Virus record (IMG/VR): IMGVR_UViG_2571042372_000007
Direction: 5' to 3' (one strand)
Source of the DNA: a virus
Taxonomy: Duplodnaviria; Heunggongvirae; Uroviricota; Caudoviricetes
DNA length: 17,769 bases
The position numbers and the translations under genes were made by a program. The notes under the pieces are model-generated. The model was not told the DNA's origin. It searched no databases and saw nothing but the letters and a program-made list of their open reading frames with translations. Shown piece by piece: positions 1,611 to 17,769 of this stretch. Each line of letters begins with the position of its first letter. Position 1 is the stretch's first letter.

Positions 1611-2825
1611 GTGAAACTCAATGCCCGTCAAATAGACACTGCCAAGCCAAAAGAGAAGGCTTACAAGCTGGCTGATGGTGGTGGTCTGTATCTCTTGGTA
1701 AAACCTAGTGGAGGAAAATATTGGCGCTTCAAGTATCGTGTAGCTGGTAAAGAGAAGCTGTTAGCACTAGGTGTGTATCCTGAAGTTACCTTGGCTGATG
1801 CTCGTGCAAAACGTGAAGAAGCTAAAAGGGGTATCGCTGGGGGTATCGATCCGATGGAAGCGAAACGAGAGGAAAAGATTGCCCGGGAAACGCAGTTAAA
1901 CAACACCTTCAAAGATATTGCCCTTGAGTGGCACAGCAGCAAATTAAAAAAATGGTCTGCTGGTTATGCTTCAGACATCCTCGAAGCCTTCAACAAAGAT
2001 GTGTTCCCTTACATTGGCAAAAAACCAATCGCCGAAATCAAACCACTTGAACTGCTGAATGTGCTGCGGCGCATCGAGGGGCGCGGTGCTACCGAAAAAG
2101 CCAAAAAAGTGAGGCAGCGATGTGGGGAAGTTTTCCGCTATGCAATTGTCACTGGACGTGCTGAGTATAACCCTGCACCGGATCTCACCAGCGCGATGCA
2201 AGGTCATGAATCTAATCATTATCCTTTCCTCACAGCCAAAGAATTACCTGATTTTTTCAAGGCATTGTCCAGTTACTCAGGAAGTGCATTGGTTGTTATG
2301 GCGGCTCGTTTACTGATTATCACCGGTTTGCGGACTGGCGAACTGCGCGGTGCATTATGGGATGAAATCGATCTCAACAAGGCTATCTGGGAGATACCTG
2401 CTTCACGGATGAAAATGCGTCGCCCTCATGTAGTGCCTTTGTCTGAGCAGGCTCTTTCGCTTATTGGGCAGATTAAAGAACTAACTGGCAATTATCCGCT
2501 TATGTTTCCCGGCCGTAATGATCCAAGGAAAACAATGAGCGAGGCTAGCATAAACCAAGTATTTAAACGCATCGGCTATAACGGAAAGGTTACTGGTCAT
2601 GGCTTCCGGCACACTATGAGCACCATTTTGCATGAGCAGGGCTATAACACCGCGTGGATAGAGACACAGCTTGCGCACGTCGATAAAAACTCAATTCGTG
2701 GCACATACAACCATGCGCAATATCTGGATGGGCGGCGGGAAATGCTTCAGTGGTACGCTGATTATATGGATTCGCTCGAGCATGGCGGAAATGTGGTGCA
2801 TGGTGAGTTCGGAAAATGCGGGTGA
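1611..2825 (+). CDS. int: P4-family tyrosine integrase (site-specific recombinase), GTG start
   Basis: 404-aa ORF; N-terminus MKLNARQIDTAKPKEKAYKLADGGGLYLLVKPSGGKYWRFKYR is the typical P4-integrase arm-binding region; C-terminal catalytic region with HGFRHT and a downstream conserved Tyr; directly adjacent to a tRNA gene. Confidence 0.9.
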   Translation: MKLNARQIDTAKPKEKAYKLADGGGLYLLVKPSGGKYWRFKYRVAGKEKLLALGVYPEVTLADARAKREEAKRGIAGGIDPMEAKREEKIARETQLNNTFKDIALEWHSSKLKKWSAGYASDILEAFNKDVFPYIGKKPIAEIKPLELLNVLRRIEGRGATEKAKKVRQRCGEVFRYAIVTGRAEYNPAPDLTSAMQGHESNHYPFLTAKELPDFFKALSSYSGSALVVMAARLLIITGLRTGELRGALWDEIDLNKAIWEIPASRMKMRRPHVVPLSEQALSLIGQIKELTGNYPLMFPGRNDPRKTMSEASINQVFKRIGYNGKVTGHGFRHTMSTILHEQGYNTAWIETQLAHVDKNSIRGTYNHAQYLDGRREMLQWYADYMDSLEHGGNVVHGEFGKCG

Positions 2826-2953
2826 CTGGTTGAGTATACAGTAGTAGACTTTGAGCGACGAAAGAAAAGGCTGTGTCTAGGGGCGCTCCCGAAAATCCGT
2901 ACACCTCGACGGACTGGTACAGCCACTACAGTAGAGGACGCTGAGGTGTGCGT

Positions 2954-3751
2954 ATGATTGATATTCATGCCGAATTAAACGAATACAAAAAAGATTTTAT
3001 TTCTTTACGTGAATTTCTTGAGATCGTGCTTAAGGTCGCTGGTGATGATTATGATGTTTCAGATGTCATAACTTGGATACTCAGGAGAATAAGCGGAGAA
3101 CATATCCGCCTGTACACAGTAAATGAATTTAAGCTGTTGGAATCTTTTTGTAACCCGTATCGGGATGAATTTGATAATGATGTTCTTTATAGAAATCTGA
3201 ATGCGGTTCGGAAACGTGGTTGTTTACCTGGTGAGAGGGATGAAAATGGTTTTCTGGTGTCCGGTTATTGGGAAGATCCCGAATTTGAGAACATTGGATT
3301 TATAAGGGGTGAAATTTTCGCAATTTTTCCCGATGTCCTTGACGCGTTAACGAAGCTGGAAGGCGCTAACTCTTCTGAAAATGACGAGGCACAAGGACGC
3401 GATATTGAAAAGAAAGAGTTGCGTACAGAGGATGATTTATTATCCCAAATCGCAATGCTGGAAAAAGAAAACGCAGAGTTAAGGGCAAGGATAGAGCAGT
3501 TAGAGCAAGAGCGCCCGATACACTTATATAAATACTGGGATAAAGACCCATTAGCTAAGGCTATTGAGATTAGAAACAGAGAGTGGGCCAATTACGATCC
3601 AGAAAATGATTTTGCCACCAGGGGAAATCAAGAAGCGATAACCAGGGAGCTTAAGCAGTGGGGGGCAAGTAATGCACTTGCAACGCTCATAGAGAGGACT
3701 GCCTGCCCTATTAACCGAGACAACAGTCAAAAGAACGCAAAGCCGGATTAA
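2954..3751 (+). CDS. Hypothetical protein, 265 aa, AT-rich, predicted coiled-coil segment; integrase-proximal cargo
   Basis: ORF with SD GAGGTG (2943-2948) 5 nt before ATG 2954 (the track's 2948 start is a GTG two codons upstream). Contains heptad-like IAMLEKENAELRARIEQLEQE. No family recognised. Confidence 0.6.
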   Translation: MIDIHAELNEYKKDFISLREFLEIVLKVAGDDYDVSDVITWILRRISGEHIRLYTVNEFKLLESFCNPYRDEFDNDVLYRNLNAVRKRGCLPGERDENGFLVSGYWEDPEFENIGFIRGEIFAIFPDVLDALTKLEGANSSENDEAQGRDIEKKELRTEDDLLSQIAMLEKENAELRARIEQLEQERPIHLYKYWDKDPLAKAIEIRNREWANYDPENDFATRGNQEAITRELKQWGASNALATLIERTACPINRDNSQKNAKPD

Positions 3752-3765
3752 CGCACCATACCGCA

Positions 3766-3877
3766 TACCCTGAGGGTGATTTACTGTTACCCTGAGGGTA
3801 TTTTTTTATCTTCCCCGTCAATTTTACCATCACCCTTAGGGTAGATTTCCTTCCGGTAACCATTAGGCCTGAGGGTA
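3766..3877. promoter_or_regulatory. Array of four CCT(G/T)AGGGT palindromic sites upstream of alpA
   Basis: TACCCTGAGGGT (3766-3777), TACCCTGAGGGTA (3788-3800), ACCCTTAGGGTA (3832-3843), CCTGAGGGTA (3868-3877); each a dyad-symmetric candidate operator. Confidence 0.5.
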
Positions 3878-3945
3878 TGAAAATATTCGTTATTTCTGTG
3901 CCATGATTACCTCGTCAAATTGAGTAGACGTTATGAGGTAAATAT

Positions 3946-4143
3946 ATGTCAAATACGCTTATTCGTTTAACAGAAGTTCAGCGTAGAACTGGATATAGCA
4001 AGGCATGGATTTATCGCCTTATGGGGCAAGGTAAATTTCCTGCATCAGTTAAAATTGGCTCGCGAGCTATTGCTTTCGTTGAGAGTGAAATTGACGAGTG
4101 GATTAATCAGCGTATTGCGGAATCACGCGGAACAGCTACCTGA
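3946..4143 (+). CDS. alpA: AlpA-family transcriptional regulator (phage excisionase/activator-like HTH)
   Basis: 65-aa protein LIRLTEVQRRTGYSKAWIYRLMGQGKFPASVKIGSRAIAFVESEIDEWINQR matches the AlpA/Phage_AlpA pattern (HTH, then GxR...W.ESEIDEWI). Confidence 0.85.
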   Translation: MSNTLIRLTEVQRRTGYSKAWIYRLMGQGKFPASVKIGSRAIAFVESEIDEWINQRIAESRGTAT

Positions 4144-4220
4144 TTAAATGGCTACGGGGCTATTGCCCCCAGCTATCCACCAGCAAATAAAAGTAACTTA
4201 ATTCGATAGCAGGAGTTTTT

Positions 4221-5021
4221 ATGAAATTTCCAAAAACGCCCGTACAGGGGCGGGGCTTCGTTCGGCCTGAAAACCAGAATCTGCAAAATTTCGGCGAAAT
4301 TATCCCGATTATTTCCGGCGTTATTGGCGGGAGTGAAACCACTATTGTTAGCGCCAGAGCGTTACATAAGGCGTTAGGTGTAGGGCGCGTTTTCCGTTCG
4401 TGGATCAAGGGGCGCATTGAAGAATATGGGTTCACGGAAGGCGTGGATTATGAGGTTGTTGAATATTTGAGCCGACCCGATCCGGTGAGCGCAAAATCTC
4501 GCCAGCAAACCGCTCTTGAGTACATCATCACAGTGAACATGGCGAAAGAACTGGCGATGGTCGAACGTACCGAACAGGGCCGCGCCGTTCGCCAGTACTT
4601 TATCAAATGCGAGGAGGAGCTACACAAGGTTGCGCCTGTTCGTTCCGCAGCGTTACGCCGGGAACTGAAAGCCCGTATCACAGTTGCCAGCTACTTTAAG
4701 CCAATGTGTGCCGCGCTGGAGGCGTACCGGGCTGAACTGGGTAAAAACACACTCCAGCACCACTACACCACGGAAGCGAACATGCTGGCGCGTATCGTGC
4801 TGGGTGGCATGACTGCAAAACAGTGGGCACTGGCGAACGGCATTACAGGCGAACCACGCGACCACATGAGCACGTTGCAGCTTGAGCACCTTTCTTACCT
4901 TGAGCAGAGCAATATCACGCTGATTGAGTTAGGCCAGGACTACCACCAGCGGAAGGCTGAATTAATTCGTCTTTCGCAGCGTTGGTTAGCCCGTCGTATG
5001 GAGGAAAACAGCCATGTGTAA
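4221..5021 (+). CDS. Phage antirepressor-family protein (ORF6N/Ant-like N-terminal domain)
   Basis: SD CAGGAG before ATG; motif SARALHKALGVGRVFRSWIKGRIEEYGFTEGVDYEV resembles the antirepressor N-terminal domain signature (LH..LGV...F..WI..RI..YGF.EG.DY). Assigned from memory of the family pattern. Confidence 0.55.
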   Translation: MKFPKTPVQGRGFVRPENQNLQNFGEIIPIISGVIGGSETTIVSARALHKALGVGRVFRSWIKGRIEEYGFTEGVDYEVVEYLSRPDPVSAKSRQQTALEYIITVNMAKELAMVERTEQGRAVRQYFIKCEEELHKVAPVRSAALRRELKARITVASYFKPMCAALEAYRAELGKNTLQHHYTTEANMLARIVLGGMTAKQWALANGITGEPRDHMSTLQLEHLSYLEQSNITLIELGQDYHQRKAELIRLSQRWLARRMEENSHV

Positions 5022-5480
5022 CGCTCTGACCGTTACAAAAAGAGAAAGCGCCCCGTTGCCGGAGCGCCTTTGTGAACGAATAGCCTACTGCGCCATATTG
5101 CTTACTGTCTACGAGGCAGATTATAGCGTTGTGGTCGCACAGAGTGAAGGCGCTGATCACCGTTACTACAGCACGCCAGAAATGCAGAATATTTTGCTGC
5201 AAAATGTCGTTGGTCACACTGTCCGGAAAGCAAAAAATTTTGCTGGTGGCGCGACTGATGCGATTTTGTCAGGTCGCCAGGTGCTGATCAATCTGATGTC
5301 TGATTTCGTTCTGGATAAAACAAAGGCGACCGCAGAGGGCCGCCAGTGGGAAAGCTACATACTTGAACGCATCGCCAACAATGCCAGATTTGCGGCTGGT
5401 GGGCAATGTGTCAGCTTTGCACCAATGACTCTATGTTTAACTGAGGGTCATTATGGTGAATATGCTGGCTTGCTGGTGGG
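5014..5480 (+). other. ORF translationally coupled to the antirepressor gene (ATGTGTAA overlap); 3' end undefined
   Basis: Starts MCNALTVTKRES at the same CATGTGTAA junction type seen at 6593, which argues the start is real. The frame has no stop until 6600 and turns Cys/Ser-rich and junk-like from about residue 155. End coordinate is approximate. Confidence 0.3.
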
Positions 5481-5738
5481 CTATTCCTGCTCTTTAACAT
5501 TGCCATGCCGCGATGTTTTCCAGGTATGCGACCCCATTTTTGTGTGCCTGTACTCTTTAAGGAATTTCTCAAGGACAAACGCACAGGGCGCGAATCTGTC
5601 TGACTCATGCTCGTACGCTATCTTTCTGCGCTGTCTTTTCCGTGCCGGTGATGGTGTATTGGTTGATTCTTTGTTGGTCATGGCGCTGCCCTGTAAAATA
5701 ATGCACCGTAGTTCCTCACACCACGGCACCTATAGTGG

Positions 5739-6044
5739 TTATTCCTGCTCTTTAGCTTTGCGCCGCTGGAGTTCTTCACGCGCGACGGTGACGAGTTGCC
5801 CGATTTCCTCGGCAGCTTTGACTCCGATTTTTTCCACCTGCGCTAGGGCATCGAGCGAAGAAACCAGGGGATTTTCTCCGCTTCCTTCTGCCTGGCGGCG
5901 GGCGATTTCACCGCGAACGGCTGTAATCACGAAAGCGGCTATTGTTTCCCCTTCCGTTTTCGAATTTTCCATTTCCTCGATTACATCATGGGGGAAGCGG
6001 ATATTTTTCATTTGCGATCTGCTGTTGATGTTTCCTGTTGCCAT
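5739..6044 (-). CDS. Small protein, possible ribbon-helix-helix-type regulator, divergent from the replication operon
   Basis: 101-aa minus-strand ORF MATGNINSRSQMKNIRFPHDVIEEMENSKTEGETIAAFVITAVRGEIARRQ; an N-terminal beta-strand-like segment followed by helices looks RHH-like. Weak SD; start may instead be the internal MKNIRF. Confidence 0.45.
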   Translation of the reverse strand: MATGNINSRSQMKNIRFPHDVIEEMENSKTEGETIAAFVITAVRGEIARRQAEGSGENPLVSSLDALAQVEKIGVKAAEEIGQLVTVAREELQRRKAKEQE

Positions 6045-6135
6045 CAGAATGTCCGGTTATTTTGAGGTGTGTACACATTACACCAAAAGGTGTGTTGATA
6101 AAACACTTGACACTGTAGCACACTTAAATTTAATT

Positions 6136-6168
6136 TGTATATACACCAATTGTTGTGGTGTATATACA
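6136..6168. promoter_or_regulatory. 13-bp perfect inverted repeat (TGTATATACACCA N7 TGGTGTATATACA) in the divergent intergenic region
   Basis: Arms at 6136-6148 and 6156-6168 are exact reverse complements; located between the minus-strand gene (ends 6044) and the plus-strand operon start (6235). Additional GTGT/ACAC dyads at 6065-6090. Confidence 0.6.
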
Positions 6169-6234
6169 GCAACGCCCCGCAGTGGTGGCACACATGCAGG
6201 GCGTCTAACCAAACCGTTAAACGAGGTAACGATT

Positions 6235-6600
6235 ATGGCTGGAACACAGCATACCCAAACTCACCCTAAATTTATATACACCTTCCTGGCGGTGCACCGT
6301 GATTGCATTGCTGACGGTAAAAACACTGTACACGTAGCCGCCGATACGCTGGTTGATGCCTGCGAGATGCTCAATGACATGGGCTATATCTCGGCAACAT
6401 GGAAAGGGCGCGAAGAAAACACGCTGTTTATTCAGAAATGCGAAAACAATTTTATCTGGCGTTTTATCGCCCTGAGTACGGCACAACCGCGCGTGATTCA
6501 CATCGAGGCCACCAGCGAACAGGAAGCACGCCAGCAATCTCCTGATGGCTGCGTGATGGTATTCGCTGCCCGTATTCGCCAGGAGGTGGAGCATGTGTAA
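6235..6600 (+). CDS. Hypothetical protein, 121 aa (first gene of the replication operon)
   Basis: ATG 6235 preceded by SD-like GAGGTAACG; the protein-like tail of the 528-aa track ORF (MAGTQHTQTHPKFIYTFLAVHRDC...); stop overlaps the next gene start (ATGTGTAA). Confidence 0.55.
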   Translation: MAGTQHTQTHPKFIYTFLAVHRDCIADGKNTVHVAADTLVDACEMLNDMGYISATWKGREENTLFIQKCENNFIWRFIALSTAQPRVIHIEATSEQEARQQSPDGCVMVFAARIRQEVEHV

Positions 6601-7598: not shown

Positions 7599-7889
7599 AT
7601 GAAAAAGAAATATTCTGGCTTTACTGCCAGCGGCCTCTCTCGGCCTGAAATCCGCCCCGGTGATATTTTCCGGGACACCAGACGCGGGGGACGGGTGGTT
7701 ATTCGTCACGTTACGCCAGGCAATATCACCTACCGCCGTGAGGCTTACGAATATGACTGCGTAATGCCGCGCCGTCAGTTTGAGCGTGATTTTATTCTGG
7801 TGGAAAACAAACAACAGGCAGTGGCGAGACGTGCAGCCACGAATATTAAAAAAATCCGGGCAATGTTGGTTGCGGGAGGTAAGAAGTGA
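7599..7889 (+). CDS. Hypothetical basic protein, 96 aa
   Basis: ORF immediately upstream of, and overlapping (GTGA), the primase/helicase gene start; Arg/Lys-rich. Confidence 0.5.
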   Translation: MKKKYSGFTASGLSRPEIRPGDIFRDTRRGGRVVIRHVTPGNITYRREAYEYDCVMPRRQFERDFILVENKQQAVARRAATNIKKIRAMLVAGGKK

Positions 7890-9691
7890 AAAACGCACCG
7901 AATTTAAAATATCAGCCGAAGGATAAATTCACCGAGGTAATCATTTTTGCCGGGACGGATGCTTACGCCCATGCTCAACACTGGATTGAAAGCGAAGGAC
8001 GAAAACACGGCGATAACGTGCCTCCTGTTTACCTGGGGCCAAAGCAACTGGCAGACCTGGCGAATATCCGCATTGTCGACGATGAACGCCGCTTTGCGCG
8101 TGTCTATCTCGCGGGGGAGATAGAGCCAATCCAGATCAATGCTATTGCTGAAAAGCTGGCGCTGGCTGGTGTACAGGACGCGAAATTATACAAAGGTATC
8201 ACCGACCGGGAGCCGGAAAACTGGCGCGACTACCTGCAACGGATCCGCGAACAGGCAGAGAGTGGGGAAGTTTCAGCGATGAAATTAGCCACAAAAAATA
8301 TTGACCTATCCAGGCCAGCACTAAATCAGATGGGAGCCAGCCAGAGAGGGGAAGTGTTACTTGAATATTATGGAAGAGCACTGGCTATAAATGATGATTC
8401 TGATGTAGTTCACCATTACAACGGAATTGTCTGGGTGCCTGTATCTGATAAGGAACTCCAGCGGTCTATGGCGAAGATTTTTATTGATGCTGGAATCAGT
8501 TATTCGCAAAACGCCATTAAATTTGCCGTAGACACAATGAAATTGAGCCTGCCTGTTATGGGCGGGGCAGACAGGAATCTTATTGGATTCAGTAACGGGG
8601 TATTTGATACCCGGACGGGAAATTTTCGGGAGCATAACAAAAATGACTGGTTGTTAAATGCCAGTGAATTACCGTTCAGCCCACCAGCAGAGGGGGAAAC
8701 GCTGGCAACACATGCGCCGAATTTCTGGAAGTGGCTGCGTCGTTCGGTGGCAGATAATGATCGTAAAGCTGATCGCGTACTGGCGGCATTATTCATGGTA
8801 CTGGCGAACCGGTACGACTGGCAGTTATTCCTTGAGGTAACAGGCCCAGGCGGAAGCGGTAAAAGTGTGATGGCTGAGATTTGTACCATGCTGGCGGGTA
8901 AGGCCAACACAGTATCGGCAAGCATGAAGGCTCTGGAAGACGCAAGGGAACGCGCGTTAGTAGTTGGCTTTTCGCTGATTATCATGCCGGATATGACTCG
9001 CTACGCTGGCGATGGTGCAGGAATTAAGGCAATTACTGGCGGCGACAAGGTGGCAATTGATCCGAAACATAAAGCCCCCTACTCCACACGTATTCCGGCA
9101 GTAGTGCTTGCGGTAAACAATAACGCCATGTCATTCAGTGACCGAAGCGGGGGGATCTCGCGTCGTAGGGTGATATTTAATTTCTCTGAGGTCGTACCGG
9201 AGAACGAACGCGATCCCATGCTGGCGGAAAAGATAGAAGGCGAACTGGCGGTAGTGATTCGCCATTTGCTAACACGATTTACCGACCAGGACGAAGCTAA
9301 AAGACTACTTTATGAGCAGCAAAAATCAGAAGAAGCGCTGTTGATAAAGCGCGAAGGTGATTCACTGGTGGACTTTTGCGGCTATCTGATGTCGTTGGTT
9401 AAATGTGAAGGAATGATGGTGGGCAATGCGGAAATAGTGCCATTTAGCCCGAGGCGATACCTGTATCATGCTTATTTAGCCTATATGTCAGCGCATGGCC
9501 TGGGAAAACCAGTATCACTGACACGCTTTGGTACTGATATGCCAGGAGCTATGGCGGAATACGGAAAGGAGTATAAGCGGGCTAAATGCACTAAAGGCCC
9601 GGATAAAGGGCGAGTGATAACAAATGTTCTGTTAGATGATGATGCTGATGGCTGGTTGCCAGCAGCTACAGGGATTAACGACAGAACATAA
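7886..9691 (+). CDS. Replication protein: P4-alpha-like primase/helicase C-terminal region (D5_N-like plus SF3 helicase)
   Basis: 601-aa ORF with Walker A VTGPGGSGKS and a downstream Walker-B-like acidic stretch (LIIMPD), typical of the phage/plasmid primase P4-family C-terminal domain; followed by an iteron-rich origin-like region. Confidence 0.85.
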   Translation: MKNAPNLKYQPKDKFTEVIIFAGTDAYAHAQHWIESEGRKHGDNVPPVYLGPKQLADLANIRIVDDERRFARVYLAGEIEPIQINAIAEKLALAGVQDAKLYKGITDREPENWRDYLQRIREQAESGEVSAMKLATKNIDLSRPALNQMGASQRGEVLLEYYGRALAINDDSDVVHHYNGIVWVPVSDKELQRSMAKIFIDAGISYSQNAIKFAVDTMKLSLPVMGGADRNLIGFSNGVFDTRTGNFREHNKNDWLLNASELPFSPPAEGETLATHAPNFWKWLRRSVADNDRKADRVLAALFMVLANRYDWQLFLEVTGPGGSGKSVMAEICTMLAGKANTVSASMKALEDARERALVVGFSLIIMPDMTRYAGDGAGIKAITGGDKVAIDPKHKAPYSTRIPAVVLAVNNNAMSFSDRSGGISRRRVIFNFSEVVPENERDPMLAEKIEGELAVVIRHLLTRFTDQDEAKRLLYEQQKSEEALLIKREGDSLVDFCGYLMSLVKCEGMMVGNAEIVPFSPRRYLYHAYLAYMSAHGLGKPVSLTRFGTDMPGAMAEYGKEYKRAKCTKGPDKGRVITNVLLDDDADGWLPAATGINDRT

Positions 9692-9998: not shown

Positions 9999-10325
9999 AT
10001 GACTAAAAATACTCGTTTTTCCCCCGAAGTCCGTCAACGGGCAGTCCGTATGGTTCTGGAAAGTCAGAGCGAATATGACTCACAATGGGCGACAATTTGT
10101 TCCATTGCTCCAAAGATTGGCTGTACGCCGGAGACTCTGCGTGTCTGGGTTCGCCAGCATGAGCGGGATACCGGGGGCGGTGATGGAGGGCTCACCACCG
10201 CTGAACGTCAGCGTCTGAAAGAGCTGGAACGTGAAAATCGTGAACTGCGCCGCAGTAACGATATCCTTCGCCAGGCTTCCGCTTATTTTGCGAAGGCGGA
10301 GTTCGACCGCCTCTGGAAAAAATGA
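9999..10325 (+). CDS. IS3-family transposase OrfA (HTH and leucine-zipper region)
   Basis: 108 aa, [55 protein letters not shown]...[30 protein letters not shown]. Confidence 0.85.
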
Positions 10326-11212
10326 TGCCACTGCTGGATAAGCTGCGTGAGCAGTACGGGGTCGGACCGCTATGCAGCGAACTGCATATTGCCCCGTCAA
10401 CGTATTACCACTGTCAGCAACAGCGACATCATCCGGATAAACGCAGTGCCCGTGCGCAGCGCGATGACTGGCTGAAGAAAGAGATACAGCGCGTATACGA
10501 TGAAAATCACAAGGTATACGGTGTGCGTAAAGTCTGGCGTCAGTTGTTACGGGAAGGTATCAGAGTGGCCAGATGCACTGTGGCACGTCTCATGGCGGTT
10601 ATGGGACTTGCCGGTGTTCTCCGGGGTAAAAAGGTCCGTACGACCATCAGCCGGAAAGCCGTTGCCGCAGGCGACCGCGTAAACCGTCAGTTCGTGGCAG
10701 AACGACCTGACCAGCTGTGGGTGGCTGATTTTACTTACGTCAGCACATGGCGGGGCTTCGTCTATGTGGCGTTCATCATTGATGTGTTTGCCGGATACAT
10801 CGTGGGGTGGCGGGTCTCATCGTCCATGGAAACGACATTCGTGCTGGATGCACTGGAGCAGGCGTTATGGGCCCGTCGACCGTCCGGCACGGTCCATCAC
10901 AGTGATAAAGGTTCTCAGTATGTATCGCTGGCCTACACACAGCGGCTTAAGGAAGCCGGATTACTGGCATCAACAGGAAGTACAGGCGACTCGTATGACA
11001 ACGCGATGGCGGAGAGCATCAATGGTCTTTACAAAGCGGAGGTAATACACCGTAAGAGCTGGAAAAACCGTGCAGAAGTGGAACTGGCCACACTCACGTG
11101 GGTGGACTGGTATAACAATCGACGATTGCTGGAAAGGCTGGGCCATACTCCTCCGGCAGAAGCAGAAAAAGCTTATTATGCTTCCATCGGAAACGATGAT
11201 CTGGCAGCCTGA
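10322..11212 (+). CDS. IS3-family transposase OrfB (DDE catalytic domain), expressed as OrfAB by -1 frameshift
   Basis: 296 aa; overlaps orfA by ATGA; DDE-type integrase core (WVADFTYV..., [10 protein letters not shown]..., YDNAMAES...) characteristic of IS3 transposases. Confidence 0.85.
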
Positions 11213-13221: not shown

Positions 13222-13320
13222 ATCAGTAAGGGGCGGTTATTGCCCCTTTCCTCCATACCCACAACGCATTCCCTTTCCGCATGAAATTATTTTTTATCGT
13301 ATATGCATGAGGTGAGCTAC

Positions 13321-13848
13321 ATGTTGATGAGTAAAGCCGAATACGCCAAATACAAAGGCGTAAGCCGCCAGACAGTTTACGACTGGCTCGAGAAAGGCGA
13401 AGTGGTCATGTCCGGTAAAAAAATTGATGTGGAAGCGACAGAGCAGCGGAACAGCCCACCAGCACAGGGGAAAGACACCATTTCTGAAATGTGGCCAGAA
13501 AGAACGCTGGAAATGACATGGGGCGAGTTCTGGAAAGCAGTTAAGGCCAGAGACGGTAAAATTCCTGCGCCAGTAACGGACGAGGGCATACAGCAGCGTG
13601 TGCTGTATGCAGCCGGGGAATTAGGCTGGGAAGTGCACTTTCTTGATGATGGTGCTATCTGTCTTGAGGATGATGAAGGGCAGCATTACTTTGAAAAATA
13701 CAATTTGCGAGGTAATGCCAGGCTGGCAATTCGTATGCTGCGTTGCGAACTCTGCTATGTTGCCAGCGATTGTCCCGATGAACAGGACACATGGAGTGAG
13801 GCAGGACTAAACGCCTTGGCTGAATGGGAAAAATCAGGCCATCAATGA
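13321..13848 (+). CDS. HTH-domain DNA-binding protein, about 176 aa
   Basis: SD GAGGTG 6 nt before ATG 13321; N-terminus MSKAEYAKYKGVSRQTVYDWLEKGEV is a canonical helix-turn-helix; lies directly upstream of the GTGTCAA repeat array. Confidence 0.6.
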   Translation: MLMSKAEYAKYKGVSRQTVYDWLEKGEVVMSGKKIDVEATEQRNSPPAQGKDTISEMWPERTLEMTWGEFWKAVKARDGKIPAPVTDEGIQQRVLYAAGELGWEVHFLDDGAICLEDDEGQHYFEKYNLRGNARLAIRMLRCELCYVASDCPDEQDTWSEAGLNALAEWEKSGHQ

Positions 13849-14670: not shown

Positions 14671-15897
14671 ATGATTGCAGGCGCGAAAAGAGGGAGAAAC
14701 GAACGCAAGGGGCTTCACTCTTGGCATCCATACTATGCGGGCTATTCAGAGTCATTTGTGGCTTCTGTTTTGCAGGCTGAAGGAGTTAAGTCGTCCGCTA
14801 CCGTTCTTGATCCTTGGATGGGAAGCGGTACCACTGGTATAGTTTGTCAAAAGCAAACCATAAAGTGTATTGGAGCAGATATTAATCCTGTAATGAGCTA
14901 TTTTGCTGCAGCCAAAAGTAGGGATAATATTTCAGCGCTGGATTATACCGGAGAGCAACTCCTGGAAAGGATACTGCTTTGCTTTAGAAAAAAAACAAAA
15001 GATATAACTGAGTCATCGAAGGGCTATCCACTTATTGAACAGTTACAAAAGTTTTATAAATGTATCTGTGATCAGTTTATGGATAAAGGACAAAATGATA
15101 TCGTAAATCCTTTAAAAGCATTTTATTGCAGTGTTTTATTTTATACTGTTCGCAATGTCCTTGATGTTAGGTCAACTTCAAATCCTACATGGATTTCTAA
15201 AAAAGTAGACTTTAATAATAAATTTGATATTTGTTTTGAATATAATAAAAATTTTAAAATTATGCGTGAGCAGTTAAGTGAATATTATGGCAGCGCTAAT
15301 GGGGGGGCATGTTACTCGATTTTAAACGTGGATAGTAAAAAATTAAATATTAAAAGTAACACAATTGATCTTGTTATTACATCGCCACCGTATTTAACAC
15401 GAATAGACTATGCCGTTTCTACTCGTCTTGAGTTGGAAATAATTTTAGGGAGTGAGGGATATAAGTCTCTTAGAAAGGAAATGATGGGCACGACGACTGT
15501 GCCTAAAGTTGCGGATGAAATTAATAAAAAATGGGGGCCATTGTGTATGGATGTTTTGTCATCGGTAACATCGCATACATCAAGAGCATCTGGAAGTTAT
15601 TACCTTAAAAATAAAATTAGATATTTTTCTGATGCGTATGAGTCATTAATGGAAATCTTTAGAGTTTTAAAGGTAGGTTGCTCTGGTTATTTTGTAATAC
15701 AAAATTCATATTATAAGGAAATAGAGATTCCGCTTTATGATATTTATTGTGAAATGGCGCTTTCTATTGGGTTTTCAGAAGCGAAATGTGTGAGAGAAGA
15801 TCAAGTTAAAGCAATATTTGGACAAATAAATACCAAGTCAAAAAATTATATTAAAGATAAAGTTTATTTTGAAAAAATCATAAGGATAACAAAATGA
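14671..15897 (+). CDS. SAM-dependent methyltransferase (putative DNA N6-adenine/N4-cytosine MTase), motif I before motif IV
   Basis: 408 aa; AdoMet-binding motif DPWMGSGTTG (about 14809-14838) and catalytic SPPY (about 15384-15395) in the ITSPPYLTRIDY context; AT-rich; stop overlaps the start of the next gene (ATGA). Confidence 0.75.
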   Translation: MIAGAKRGRNERKGLHSWHPYYAGYSESFVASVLQAEGVKSSATVLDPWMGSGTTGIVCQKQTIKCIGADINPVMSYFAAAKSRDNISALDYTGEQLLERILLCFRKKTKDITESSKGYPLIEQLQKFYKCICDQFMDKGQNDIVNPLKAFYCSVLFYTVRNVLDVRSTSNPTWISKKVDFNNKFDICFEYNKNFKIMREQLSEYYGSANGGACYSILNVDSKKLNIKSNTIDLVITSPPYLTRIDYAVSTRLELEIILGSEGYKSLRKEMMGTTTVPKVADEINKKWGPLCMDVLSSVTSHTSRASGSYYLKNKIRYFSDAYESLMEIFRVLKVGCSGYFVIQNSYYKEIEIPLYDIYCEMALSIGFSEAKCVREDQVKAIFGQINTKSKNYIKDKVYFEKIIRITK

Positions 15898-17006
15898 ATG
15901 ACGTAACTAAATTGCTATCTCAGATAGATGAAAAAAGAGATGAGGTAGTAACTGATTCTTATACCATATCATGGCGTGAAGTAATTAATCTATATAAAGA
16001 AAATGAGATAACCATTTCTCCAGACTACCAAAGGCTTTTTCGTTGGGATAACGCAAGACAAAGCCAATTTATCGAGTCATTACTTTTAAATATACCTACG
16101 CCAACACTTTTTTTCTACATTGATAATAATGGTAAGCAGGAGGTTATCGATGGATTGCAACGTGTGAGTACTATAATTAGATTTTTTTCAGAGGATATTT
16201 TTAATAAGGAAGAAATAGATAATGCAAAGAAACAAAACTCTGTAAATGATGTCCGTAATCCAACTGTTCTTGATGATGTGCCTATAATTACAGAATTAAA
16301 TGGATGGACTGCAAAAGGATTGCCGGACAAAGTTAGCCGAACTATAAAAAATGCGCGAGTAAATGTTGTTATTTTGGAGCAAGAAACAAAACCTGAAACT
16401 AAATATAATGTTTTTAAACGACTGAATAGGTCTGGTGTTCGTTTGAGTGACCAGGAAATACGTAATTGCATGGCTAGATTAGCAGGGAATGAATTTGCAG
16501 ATCGCTTACGTAAGATGGCCGAAATTGATGGTATTGTTCAAGCTCTTGGAATAAATGAAGATGGCCAAAAATCTCAAGGTGTTGAGGAAGCTTTGCTACG
16601 AGTTATGGCATCTTTGACTTATGCGGATAAATTTAGCCATAGTGTAACTGACTTTTTGGATGAATTTATGTTCTACGCGGCAGAACATAATGTTATTGAT
16701 ATTAATTTTGAATTAAAAATAAAAAGAACTTTTGATTTGATAAATATTGCTGGTTTATCTGGTAAAGCATTTAAATTTAGAAAGGATGGTGCTCCAAGTG
16801 GCCCGTTTAGTACTAATTTATTAGATGTTGTTGCTGTTGGTATTTTTAGTAATGTAGATAATTTAACACCTGCTGAGGTGGCGAAAAGATTTGATTATTT
16901 AATGGATGGTGAGATCAAAGAATTAAGAGCTTGTACTGGTTCTGGATCTAATACTAAAGCCAAATTAGAGAAAAGAATCGCTCTTGGGAAGAAGGTGTTT
17001 GGATAA
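15894..17006 (+). CDS. DUF262 (ParB/Srx-like NTPase, GmrS-type N-terminal domain) protein
   Basis: 370 aa; signature SPDYQRLFRW (about 16017-16046), IDGLQR (about 16144-16161, canonical DGQQR) and FKRLNRSGVRLS; no recognisable fused nuclease (DUF1524/HNH) domain. Confidence 0.75.
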   Translation: MNDVTKLLSQIDEKRDEVVTDSYTISWREVINLYKENEITISPDYQRLFRWDNARQSQFIESLLLNIPTPTLFFYIDNNGKQEVIDGLQRVSTIIRFFSEDIFNKEEIDNAKKQNSVNDVRNPTVLDDVPIITELNGWTAKGLPDKVSRTIKNARVNVVILEQETKPETKYNVFKRLNRSGVRLSDQEIRNCMARLAGNEFADRLRKMAEIDGIVQALGINEDGQKSQGVEEALLRVMASLTYADKFSHSVTDFLDEFMFYAAEHNVIDINFELKIKRTFDLINIAGLSGKAFKFRKDGAPSGPFSTNLLDVVAVGIFSNVDNLTPAEVAKRFDYLMDGEIKELRACTGSGSNTKAKLEKRIALGKKVFG

Positions 17007-17007
17007 A

Positions 17008-17769
17008 ATGAGAATATCAGATTTCGATGATTTCAAGGTGATGTTGGAAAAGACGAAAAATGAAAGTCTTGGATTCCTTGAGAGCATAAAGTCTATTAAT
17101 GAGTTTATGTCGAGATCAGGTGATAAAGACAAGGAGGATATGTTTAGAATAATATCGGTCCCAATGATTTATTCTTCTTGGGAGGGTTTTTTTACTGAAA
17201 CAATGTCAGTTTGCTTAAATACATTGAAACTCTCAGATAGAGAGGCATTTAGATACTCTGCAGAAATTCGAGCACTTTGGTTGCAACGAGAACCATTTTA
17301 TAGCAAGTATGTAGATATGATAAAAAATATTTATGATGCTGACTCACACCGAAGCATTGTCCATAATGGCGCCCAAATAAAAAAGAAAGTTACGAAGGGG
17401 GCGTTTAAACTAACAAGTGAGGTAATTCAACACATTGACAGGTTTAATAAATCCACATTATCAGATTGCGATGTTTCTGAATTAGTTATGACATTTTCCA
17501 ATGTGAATGAAATGGTTGTCAAGGTGAATTTCGATGCTATAGGTTTGGATTATTCATCACTTGATTTATCGCAACTAGGTGAGGTTGTTGGCCTTAGAAA
17601 TTCTTTGGGACATGGGGAGTTTAAAAGTAGTGTTAACCCTAGGAAATTTAATTCAATAATTGTGTATGTGGAAAATCTGATCATCGATTTGAATCAATGT
17701 GCTATAACGTGGTTGGATAAATTAGAAGATGAAATAACTAAGCCTGAAGATAATGAGACTATTCAGTGA
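17008..17769 (+). CDS. Hypothetical protein with HEPN-like Rx4H motif (candidate RNase effector)
   Basis: Preferred start ATG 17008, one nt after the upstream stop (the track's 16984 is a TTG); 253 aa; C-terminal LRNSLGHGEF (about 17593-17622) fits the HEPN R-x4-6-H active-site motif; complete, stop at 17767-17769. Confidence 0.55.
   Translation: MRISDFDDFKVMLEKTKNESLGFLESIKSINEFMSRSGDKDKEDMFRIISVPMIYSSWEGFFTETMSVCLNTLKLSDREAFRYSAEIRALWLQREPFYSKYVDMIKNIYDADSHRSIVHNGAQIKKKVTKGAFKLTSEVIQHIDRFNKSTLSDCDVSELVMTFSNVNEMVVKVNFDAIGLDYSSLDLSQLGEVVGLRNSLGHGEFKSSVNPRKFNSIIVYVENLIIDLNQCAITWLDKLEDEITKPEDNETIQ

What the first reader, a model, noticed from the sequence alone, without database searches (positions are those of the whole stretch)
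2954..3751. AT-rich unknown gene in the integrase-proximal slot
The position between int and alpA is a known variable cargo slot in P4-like satellites (defence/anti-defence hotspot next to int). This 265-aa protein has no family I recognise, carries a coiled-coil segment, and is AT-richer than its neighbours, consistent with horizontally acquired cargo.
Basis: inference. Interest (0 to 1): 0.5.

Follow-up and report, generated by a model that had tools for sequence, protein, structure and literature searches.

The report
Candidate regulator cassette upstream of alpA
The unknown gene between the integrase and alpA of this E. coli phage-satellite-like island is probably not defence cargo; together with the repeated DNA palindromes that follow it, it looks like a swappable control cassette for the island's master switch AlpA.

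Summary
The ORF is real: 2954-3751, 265 aa, with no hit in Pfam, NCBIfam or PADLOC and only marginal coiled-coil PHROG hits. It has a leucine zipper and 41% GC. It does not behave like cargo.

In about 25 related islands from Enterobacterales, Orbaceae and Pasteurellaceae, at several integration sites, the order is constant:
- int
- the Rfam int-alpA RNA (RF02996, here 2870-2937)
- this gene
- an array of 3-6 helically phased palindromes (TACCCTNAGGGTA, here 3766-3877)
- a hairpin that sequesters the alpA ribosome-binding site
- alpA

The protein has a variable, acidic N module, which is a separate gene in some relatives. A 4-heptad zipper follows, then a conserved 70-aa C-terminal domain.

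The palindromes follow the C-terminal domain type. They do not follow AlpA (63/65 identical where the repeats differ completely), the N module or the primase. Between two ~97% identical thrW islands, exactly the block 2874-3924 is replaced.

Best reading (about 0.55): a zipper-dimerised DNA-binding regulator that gates the alpA promoter, with the N module as signal input. The direction of control, the DNA binding itself and any helper-phage sensing are inferred, not shown. The island's recognisable defence genes lie at its 3' end.

The parts
2870..2937 (+). Rfam RF02996 'int-alpA RNA' three-stem motif. Here it forms the 5' leader of the slot gene and ends 17 nt before its ATG.
   Evidence: cmscan gives 46.8 bits against a gathering score of 35.8. 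The same motif lies 15-22 nt upstream of the first gene of the cassette in L002-4, L009-L019, L021, L022, L031 and L032 (in L014 and L019 it lies much further upstream), whatever the slot-protein type.
2954..3751 (+). Slot gene 'X', 265 aa (WP_016239183.1).
   Evidence: Found in 154 of 5426 complete E. coli genomes. 43 clusters at 90% identity. 126 representatives among 1.84 billion proteins. No homologue in 50,697 phage or 72,556 plasmid records.
2954..3373 (+). N module, residues 1-140. It is variable between homologues and strongly acidic (net charge -12), with a winged-helix-like alpha/beta prediction. The first ~100 residues are a separate gene in some relatives.
   Evidence: Alignment A1. 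pLDDT 85-90. Charge. Split two-gene versions in L010, L011 and L013. The same N module is fused to a different C-terminal domain in P0097, P0098 and P0109.
3428..3511 (+). Leucine zipper, residues 159-186: four heptads with Asn173 at an 'a' position.
   Evidence: Sequence. L169 and L183 are invariant and L176 nearly so. bZIP/DivIC/leucine-zipper matches. Single helix in both models.
3512..3727 (+). Conserved C-terminal domain, residues 187-258: four short helices plus the C-terminal motif A-I-E-x-V-A-C-P-I-x-R. This is the proposed DNA-reading domain.
3766..3778 (.). Palindrome 1, TACCCTGAGGGTG.
3788..3800 (.). Palindrome 2, TACCCTGAGGGTA (perfect), 22 bp from palindrome 1.
3831..3843 (.). Palindrome 3, CACCCTTAGGGTA, 43 bp from palindrome 2. 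It is duplicated in phase (+33 bp) in many E. coli strains.
3858..3877 (.). Promoter-proximal composite site AACCATTAGG|CCTGAGGGTA. In L002 it is the perfect 20-mer TACCCTGAGGCCTCAGGGTA.
   Evidence: It is conserved next to the alpA leader in window, L002, L003, L010 and L012, and only in degenerate form in L014.
3899..3907 (+). Putative extended -10 element of the alpA promoter (TGcCATGAT). Inference only.
   Evidence: The block TGnnATnAT is conserved at a fixed distance from the hairpin in window, L002, L010, L012, L013 and L015. The consensus scan found no canonical sigma-70 promoter in 2700-4300.
3907..3941 (+). alpA leader hairpin. The 5' arm TTACCTCGT (3907-3915) pairs with ATGAGGTAA (3933-3941), which contains the Shine-Dalgarno GAGG (3935-3938).
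   Evidence: The MFE fold pairs the SD in 17 of 20 loci, with different arm sequences that keep pairing, e.g. CTCCTGTAG/CTACAGGAG in L032 and TCTCCCGT/ACGGGAGA in L009.
3946..4143 (+). alpA, encoding a 65-aa Phage_AlpA/HTH_17 protein. It is the presumed target of the cassette.
   Evidence: Pfam PF05930, E 2.4e-19.

Best explanation
The gene encodes the protein half of a self-contained regulatory cassette at 2870-3924. The cassette comprises a leader RNA, the gene, and an array of four phased palindromes. It controls expression of alpA, the switch that triggers excision and replication in this kind of phage-satellite-like island.

Proposed mechanism:
- Two chains pair through the four-heptad leucine zipper (159-186).
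- This places two copies of the conserved C-terminal domain (187-258) side by side. Each copy reads one CCCT/AGGG half-site of the 13-bp palindrome TACCCTNAGGGTA.
- Dimers occupy the sites centred 174, 152, 109 and about 78 nt upstream of the alpA ATG, all on one face of the helix.
- The last site abuts the -35 region of a putative extended -10 promoter.
- The variable, acidic N module is the signal-input part. The most likely signal is a helper-phage protein, so that AlpA is made only when a suitable phage is active.

Shown: the anatomy, the conservation, the cassette boundaries, and the one-to-one association between C-terminal domain type and repeat type.

Inferred: direct DNA binding, the promoter position, and the nature of the signal. 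The sign of control is open. I lean about 55:45 towards repression or insulation that a phage signal relieves, over phage-dependent activation.
For: 1. Conserved order int > RF02996 RNA > X > repeat array > alpA.
- It is seen at thrW, at a tRNA-Gly next to actS, and at other tRNA sites in E. coli, Salmonella and 11 other genera.

2. The palindrome class AC[CT][CA]TNA[GT][GA]GT is concentrated in the X-alpA spacers.
- It occurs 37 times in 3.8 kb of these spacers against 2 times in 170 kb of flanking DNA.
- It is absent from six loci whose slot protein has another C-terminal domain.
- In the window, all exact-pattern matches lie in the spacer: 3 found against 0.07 expected.

3. The sites follow the C-terminal domain, not the neighbouring genes.
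- AlpA is 63/65 identical in L006 and L007, where the repeats are entirely different.
- L031 and L032 share X's N module but carry another C-terminal domain, and they have CACTTCCA(A/G)A repeats.
- L003 has the same palindromes with a different primase type.
- Metagenomic relatives with only ~25-35% identical domains still have CCCTNAGGG arrays in front of an AlpA-like gene.

4. The cassette is exchanged as a unit.
- Against L007 the window is 97.3% identical up to 2873, shows no similarity over 2874-3924, and is 96.5% identical from 3925 on.

5. The geometry fits a bound protein array.
- Site centres are conserved at ~206, 174, 152 and 109 nt from the alpA ATG in several loci.
- Spacings are 22, 43 and 32 bp.
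- Copy number changes by in-phase 33-bp or 22-bp duplications.

6. The protein features fit.
- A parallel-dimer-type zipper lies directly upstream of the conserved domain.
- The domain is confidently predicted as a small helical bundle, pLDDT 94.
- It carries a G-[LFI]-S-x3-A-x2-I-E stretch that I judge helix-turn-helix-like by eye. This was not tested against any HTH model.
- Versions with only zipper plus domain, encoded as a separate gene, keep the array.

7. Literature context.
- For Gram-negative PICIs, how alpA is kept off and then switched on by the helper phage is unresolved (PMC6092414).
- The same question is open for PICMIs (PMC10803314).
Against: - The protein is very acidic (pI 4.7, net -19). 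The conserved domain is on average neutral (+0.2 +/- 2), which is unusual for a DNA-binding domain.
- The domain-coding sequence and the repeats are physically adjacent, so linkage alone could produce part of the association. The loci are also phylogenetically related.
- EcCICFT073, whose alpA is helper-inducible, has no such gene. The cassette is therefore not required for helper-dependent alpA control in general.
- In PICMI115, deleting the positional analogue iolg abolished excision rather than causing constitutive induction. That argues against simple repression, although it is a different protein family and was complemented only together with int.
- The promoter and transcription start are predictions. 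The consensus scan found no sigma-70 promoter.
Confidence: 0.55

Rival explanations
1. Defence or anti-defence cargo. X would be an accessory gene, for example an acidic DNA-mimic-like anti-restriction protein or an abortive-infection sensor. It would have been picked up in a variable slot next to int and would be unrelated to the island's own regulation.
For: - The interval differs between near-identical islands.
- The gene is AT-rich and the protein very acidic, pI 4.7.
- The N module is hypervariable, as expected for something in an arms race with phages.
- Sensor-regulators of satellites can themselves give immunity, as Stl2 of SaPI2 does (abstract of PMC11846896, listed).
Against: - No PADLOC hit.
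- The gene is positionally fixed with a conserved leader RNA and its own repeat array across three bacterial orders.
- The replacement alleles also come with their own repeats.
- The most conserved part of the protein is not the acidic part.
- The recognised defence genes of this island are at the other end.
- There is no homologue in phages or plasmids.
Confidence: 0.1
2. Excision or integration accessory factor, like IOLG of PICMIs. X would work with Int and AlpA in the recombination complex. The palindromes would be read by something else, or serve architecture rather than transcription.
For: - In PICMI115 the gene between int and alpA is needed for helper-induced excision. Thirteen unrelated families occupy that position (PMC10803314).
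- X always sits immediately downstream of int.
Against: - The palindromes lie about 2.3 kb from the tRNA-side att core and directly in front of alpA, not at an att arm.
- X is separated from int by 128 nt and a structured RNA rather than overlapping int.
- Islands with 97% identical int carry unrelated slot proteins. That is hard to reconcile with a specific Int partner.
- Homology to IOLG could not be tested.
Confidence: 0.12
3. The palindromes are landing sites for a helper-phage or host transcription factor, in the way P2 Ogr activates P4 promoters. X would be a protein-binding modulator, for example an anti-activator or adaptor, that is merely linked to them.
For: - Satellites of the P4 type are known to use helper activators at the promoter in front of their alpA homologue vis (established P4 biology, from my own knowledge).
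- The X domain is not basic and has no recognisable DNA-binding fold.
- EcCICFT073 achieves helper-dependent alpA induction without a slot gene.
Against: - Domain type and repeat type associate perfectly across about 27 loci, including very distant ones, while the N module, AlpA, the primase and GC content all change.
- The half-site spacing suits a zipper-tethered dimer.
- The motif does not occur elsewhere in the island.
Confidence: 0.15

Closest known systems
SaPI/PICI master repressor Stl (Rpr) of Gram-positive phage-inducible chromosomal islands
   Same: Both are island-encoded and lie next to int. Both show modular, rapidly diversifying sensor parts. Under my reading, both gate the island's induction genes and couple induction to a helper phage (role of Stl: PMC6092414).
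   Different: Stl is transcribed divergently from the genes it controls. X is co-oriented with int and alpA. There is no sequence or fold similarity. X's conserved part is C-terminal, behind a leucine zipper. Repression and de-repression by a phage protein are untested for X.
iolg/icg genes of Vibrio PICMI satellites (gene between int and alpA)
   Same: Same position between int and alpA in a small int-alpA-primase satellite. Many unrelated families occupy the slot, and none has a known biochemical function (PMC10803314).
   Different: iolg overlaps int by 1-13 nt, whereas X starts 128 nt after int, behind a structured RNA. iolg is reported as needed for excision. No repeat arrays or domain architecture were described for it in the passages read. 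Homology to X could not be tested.
Immunity cassettes of lambdoid phages (repressor gene plus its operators, exchanged as a block)
   Same: A discrete block holding a regulator gene and its cognate repeated palindromes is replaced between otherwise ~97% identical elements. The sites are multiple and phased.
   Different: X has no HTH_3/S24-type repressor domains. The operators lie downstream of the regulator gene and upstream of a co-oriented target, not between divergent promoters. Many very divergent X proteins keep the same CCCTNAGGG core, so the domain does not define many immunity specificities.
Rfam RF02996 int-alpA RNA motif
   Same: A bona fide match above the gathering score, found in the named genomic context.
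   Different: Rfam files it as a gene/sRNA named after the flanking int and alpA. Here and in most relatives examined (about 17 of 22 loci with a hit) it ends 15-22 nt before the start codon of the slot gene. This points to a 5' leader of that gene rather than a free-standing sRNA.
Eukaryotic-type bZIP/bHLH-Zip dimers
   Same: Four-heptad Leu zipper with Asn at an 'a' position. The proposed target is a short palindrome with abutting half-sites.
   Different: The polarity is reversed: the proposed DNA-reading part follows the zipper and is a folded four-helix domain. The segment before the zipper is acidic, not a basic region.

Membership tests
Known anti-phage defence system proteins (PADLOC-DB 2.0) | Significant match to a defence-system HMM | tested here: not met
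   No family at E<=0.01 for X, whereas the island's 3' genes hit MTase_II and NsnA/PD-T4-2 models.
Cargo of a satellite defence hotspot | Unrelated genes, or an empty site, at the same position in otherwise similar elements, with no element-specific cis sites | tested here: not met
   The slot holds one ~240-300 aa gene or a split pair in the co-oriented relatives examined here with a called gene there. Each type has its own repeat array in front of alpA, and most also have the RF02996 leader.
Cargo of a satellite defence hotspot | Position corresponds to the documented P4 hotspots (int to psu-delta-sid, or primase to att) | tested here: inconclusive
   The hotspot definition comes from PMC13586616. 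This island has no recognisable psu, delta or sid, so the positions cannot be matched one-to-one.
PICI master repressor Stl/Rpr | Encoded divergently from the regulated xis/replication genes, next to int | tested here: not met
   X is on the same strand as int and alpA.
PICI master repressor Stl/Rpr | Binds operators in front of the induction genes and is released by a helper-phage protein | not testable with these tools
   Only the candidate operators (3766-3877) and their co-inheritance with the protein could be shown.
PICMI iolg/icg | Gene located between int and alpA of an int-alpA-primase satellite | tested here: met
PICMI iolg/icg | Overlaps or directly abuts int (1-13 nt overlap) | tested here: not met
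   There is a 128-nt gap containing RF02996.
PICMI iolg/icg | Sequence homology to one of the 13 described families; required for excision | not tested
The phenotype needs an experiment.
Rfam RF02996 int-alpA RNA (the leader, not the protein) | Covariance-model score at or above the curated gathering score | tested here: met
   46.8 bits against 35.8, full-length model match at 2870-2937.
Leucine-zipper dimerisation segment | At least 4 heptads with Leu at d, hydrophobic residues at a, predicted as a continuous helix | tested here: met
   L162, L169, L176 and L183, with I166, N173 and I180. L169 and L183 are invariant and L176 nearly so in the family. Helix 159-186.
bZIP transcription factors | Basic DNA-contacting region immediately N-terminal to the zipper | tested here: not met
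   The preceding segment (141-158) is acidic, and the Pfam bZIP scores are below threshold.
Helix-turn-helix / winged-helix DNA-binding domains | Significant sequence or fold match to a known HTH/wHTH domain | tested here: inconclusive

The most novel reading that the evidence does not exclude
The cassette is the missing helper-phage sensor of a large group of Gram-negative int-alpA-primase satellites. It would be a two-part regulator, encoded as one fused gene or as two genes. Its exchangeable N module would capture a phage protein. Its C-terminal domain would be a previously undescribed zipper-tethered DNA-binding fold that reads CCCTNAGGG palindromes to hold or release the alpA promoter. 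The RF02996 leader and the SD-sequestering alpA hairpin would add RNA-level safeguards.
Probability: 0.3. Interest if true: 0.75.

Novelty: new variant of a known kind. Interest (0 to 1): 0.55.

Why it matters
AlpA is necessary and sufficient to start excision and replication of Gram-negative PICI and PICMI satellites. Yet the papers that established this state that the factor keeping alpA silent, and the route by which a helper phage switches it on, are unknown (PMC6092414, PMC10803314).

This finding gives a concrete candidate with defined parts:
- a protein with separable input and output modules;
- a 13-bp target motif with known positions;
- natural cassette swaps between isogenic islands.

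The question therefore becomes directly testable with gel shifts, reporters and module swaps.

It also reassigns a curated Rfam 'sRNA' to a probable leader of a protein gene that the motif's name ignores. And it warns that 'variable gene next to int' in satellites need not mean defence cargo.

Tried and rejected
Searches that gave nothing useful:
- Pfam, NCBIfam, PHROGs and PADLOC on X gave nothing beyond coiled-coil noise. Pfam on 20 domain-shuffled relatives also gave nothing useful.
- A PDB sequence-profile search found only leucine zippers.
- Foldseek against viral structures found nothing at E<0.2. afdb50 was unavailable.
- tblastn against phage and plasmid collections gave no match.
I relied on per-sequence folds instead.
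- The supplement of the paper that defined the int-alpA motif is not held.

Alternative readings of the palindromes that I considered and rejected:
- Integrase arm sites: they are 2.3 kb from the att core.
- Replication iterons: the same palindromes occur with a different primase family.
- AlpA sites: AlpA is 97% identical where the repeats differ.
- Terminators or REP-like hairpins: the arms are 6 nt with a 1-nt centre, and the T-run after palindrome 2 is not conserved.

Comparisons with known loci:
- YfjH, between intA and alpA of K-12 CP4-57, is divergent and unrelated.
- EcCICFT073 has no slot gene and no RF02996. It has ACAAC direct repeats instead.

Full report
**Setting.** The window is a chromosomal island of E. 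coli inserted at thrW. The gene order is:
- proA (1-1254) and tRNA-Thr CGU (1369-1444);
- a P4-type tyrosine integrase (1611-2825);
- the gene in question (2954-3751);
- alpA (3946-4143) and an AntA-family gene (4221-5021);
- an Icd-like region and small conserved ORFs;
- a D5/P4-type primase (7886-9691) and an IS3 element (9999-11212);
- unknown genes;
- a methyltransferase, a DUF262/NsnA-like gene and a HEPN gene at 14671-17769.

This is the int-alpA-primase layout of Gram-negative PICI/P4-like satellites. No psu, delta or sid was recognisable.

**Observation.** The ORF is real and the description holds.
- It encodes 265 aa from the ATG at 2954, with GAGG at 2943-2946, and the MIDI N-terminus is conserved.
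- RefSeq calls it hypothetical.
- It is present in 154 of 5426 complete E. coli genomes, always chromosomal.
- It has 43 clusters in the 5.8-billion protein set and 126 representatives among 1.84 billion.
- There is no homologue in 50,697 phage or 72,556 plasmid records.
- No curated family matches, apart from marginal PHROG hits to the coiled coil.
- GC is 41.2%, against 47.7% for int and 53.1% for antA. The spacer and alpA are similarly AT-rich.

**Anatomy of the protein.** Alignment of divergent homologues shows three parts.
- Residues 1-140 vary strongly. They are predicted with pLDDT 85-90 as an alpha/beta unit with a strand-helix-helix-hairpin core, and they are very acidic (net -12).
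- Residues 159-186 form a textbook parallel-dimer zipper: Leu162, 169, 176 and 183 at d positions, and Ile166, Asn173 and Ile180 at a positions.
- Residues 187-258 are the conserved core. W211, A243, E247 and C251 are nearly invariant, and P252 and R255 invariant, in 59 sequences that are otherwise 21-68% identical. With that alignment, AlphaFold gives pLDDT 94.2 for a long helix followed by four short helices.

The modules are separable.
- In Kluyvera, Raoultella and Symbiopectobacterium loci, and by position probably also in the Pantoea locus, the first ~100 residues are a separate upstream gene, and the zipper plus domain is a second gene.
- Other proteins join X's N module to a different C-terminal domain.

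**Surroundings.** Three non-coding features frame the gene.

(a) Rfam RF02996 'int-alpA RNA' matches 2870-2937 (46.8 bits, gathering score 35.8). The same motif ends 15-22 nt before the start codon of the slot gene in most relatives examined (about 17 of 22 loci with a hit), including loci whose slot protein is of another type.

(b) The 194-bp spacer before alpA carries TACCCTGAGGGTG (3766-3778), TACCCTGAGGGTA (3788-3800), CACCCTTAGGGTA (3831-3843) and the composite AACCATTAGGCCTGAGGGTA (3858-3877). Three exact-pattern matches were found against 0.07 expected, and none elsewhere in the window.

(c) Just before alpA, TTACCTCGT (3907-3915) can pair with ATGAGGTAA (3933-3941), burying the Shine-Dalgarno sequence. 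An equivalent hairpin with different but still complementary arms is predicted in 17 of 20 loci.

**Comparative evidence.** The order int > X > alpA recurs at thrW, at a tRNA-Gly next to actS, at other tRNA sites, and in Kluyvera, Raoultella, Pantoea, Symbiopectobacterium, Xenorhabdus, Photorhabdus, Cedecea, Atlantibacter, Sodalis, an Orbaceae strain and several Pasteurellaceae.

In 19 such loci the palindrome class occurs 37 times in 3.8 kb of X-alpA spacer and twice in 170 kb of flanks. Site centres sit at about 206, 174, 152 and 109 nt from the alpA ATG in several loci. Spacings are multiples of a helical turn. Copy number changes by in-phase duplications of 33 bp (many E. coli strains) or 22 bp.

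The core drifts to TACTATNATAGTA in Orbaceae and Pasteurellaceae. It is again CCCTNAGGG in GC-rich metagenomic relatives whose domains are only ~25-35% identical to X.

**Which factor goes with the sites?**
- Not AlpA. L006 and L007 encode an AlpA 63/65 identical to the window's, but they have unrelated repeats and a slot protein whose C-terminal domain is only a remote homologue (hhalign 90%, E 1.5e-6) without the A-C-P-I motif.
- Not the N module. L031 and L032 share it, but have another C-terminal domain and CACTTCCA(A/G)A repeats.
- Not the primase or AntA, both of which differ among loci with the same palindromes.
- L009 and L008 carry yet other slot proteins with ACCGCAATTGCGGT and AT-rich palindromes respectively.

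Between the window and L007, both thrW islands, identity is 97.3% up to 2873, absent from 2874 to 3924, and 96.5% from 3925 on. The leader RNA, the gene and the repeats are therefore exchanged as one block.

**Interpretation.** The simplest account is a regulator-plus-operator cassette in front of alpA. A zipper dimer would present two conserved domains to abutting half-sites, and several dimers would line one face of the DNA up to the -35 region.

A conserved TGnnATnAT block (3899-3907) may be an extended -10 element. If so, transcripts would start near 3914, inside the 5' arm of the hairpin, and would have a free ribosome-binding site. Read-through transcripts from int-X would keep the hairpin and stay untranslated. 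This last part is inference only, and the consensus scan found no canonical promoter.

The exchangeable, acidic N module is the natural place for signal input. By analogy with Stl of Gram-positive PICIs, a helper-phage protein is the likeliest signal.

**Caveats.**
- DNA binding is not shown.
- The domain has no recognisable DNA-binding fold and is not basic.
- Adjacency could inflate the association.
- EcCICFT073, whose alpA is helper-inducible, lacks the cassette altogether.
- In PICMI115 the positional analogue iolg is reported as required for excision, which would fit an activator or a recombination cofactor better than a repressor.

I therefore leave the sign of control open.

**Comparison with what is known.**
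- The closest functional analogue is Stl/Rpr.
- The closest positional analogue is iolg/icg of PICMIs.
- The closest evolutionary pattern is the immunity-cassette exchange of lambdoid phages.
- X fails the defining tests for defence cargo, for Stl-type organisation and for bZIP proteins.
- Only the RNA leader is a member of a curated family (RF02996).

**Verdict.** The cargo/defence interpretation is largely replaced by a regulatory-cassette reading (confidence about 0.55). Novelty: an undescribed protein family and domain doing a familiar kind of job in a place where the responsible factor has been an open question.

Noticed in passing
window 2870-2937; also L002-L004, L009-L019, L021, L022, L028, L031, L032: Rfam RF02996 'int-alpA RNA', filed as an sRNA, ends 15-22 nt upstream of the start codon of the gene between int and alpA in most loci (about 17 of 22 with a hit; further upstream in L012, L014, L016, L019 and L028), whatever that gene's type. 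It therefore looks like a 5' leader of that gene. It is not detected in L006-L008 or in EcCICFT073.
   Followed up: partly
window 3907-3941; the equivalent position in 17 of 20 related loci: A hairpin pairs the alpA Shine-Dalgarno sequence with an upstream arm. The arm sequences differ between loci but stay complementary (e.g. L009, L016, L032). A formal covariation test failed for alignment reasons.
   Followed up: partly
window 14671-17769: A DNA methyltransferase (MTase_II models), a DUF262 protein matching the PADLOC NsnA/PD-T4-2_A models, and a MAE_28990-type HEPN nuclease form a probable defence cluster at the 3' end of the island. This is where the real cargo seems to be.
   Followed up: no
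window 9999-11212: An IS3-family element with its ALIL frameshift pseudoknot (10280-10396) is inserted just downstream of the primase gene.
   Followed up: no
window 5014-6600: The 528-aa mechanical ORF is not a gene in RefSeq. Only its last ~120 codons are annotated as an Icd-like protein, and small YlcI/YnfO-family genes lie on the opposite strand. Many relatives carry C4 and isrK RNAs (P4/P1-type immunity RNAs) in this zone, but none is detected in the window.
   Followed up: partly
L039 (E. coli E148) against window 3818-3850: Many E. coli strains carry a 33-bp in-phase duplication that adds one more CACCCTTAGGGTA site. L003 has three 22-bp tandem units instead.
   Followed up: yes
L022-L026, L029 (Pasteurellaceae bacterium Macca): One genome holds at least six loci encoding members of this protein family with near-identical C-terminal parts, which suggests many related islands in one host.
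   Followed up: no
L035 9161-9525 (EcCICFT073 in E. coli CFT073): [quoted passage not shown]
   Followed up: partly
L033 4645-5601 (E. coli K-12 CP4-57): yfjH occupies the intA-alpA interval but on the opposite strand, 43 bp from alpA. It is unrelated to X. This divergent arrangement resembles stl in SaPIs.
   Followed up: partly
window 13303-13848: A 181-aa ORF gives a weak N-terminal match to terminase small subunit phrog_57 (E 2e-6). It may be a packaging-redirection gene of the island.
   Followed up: no
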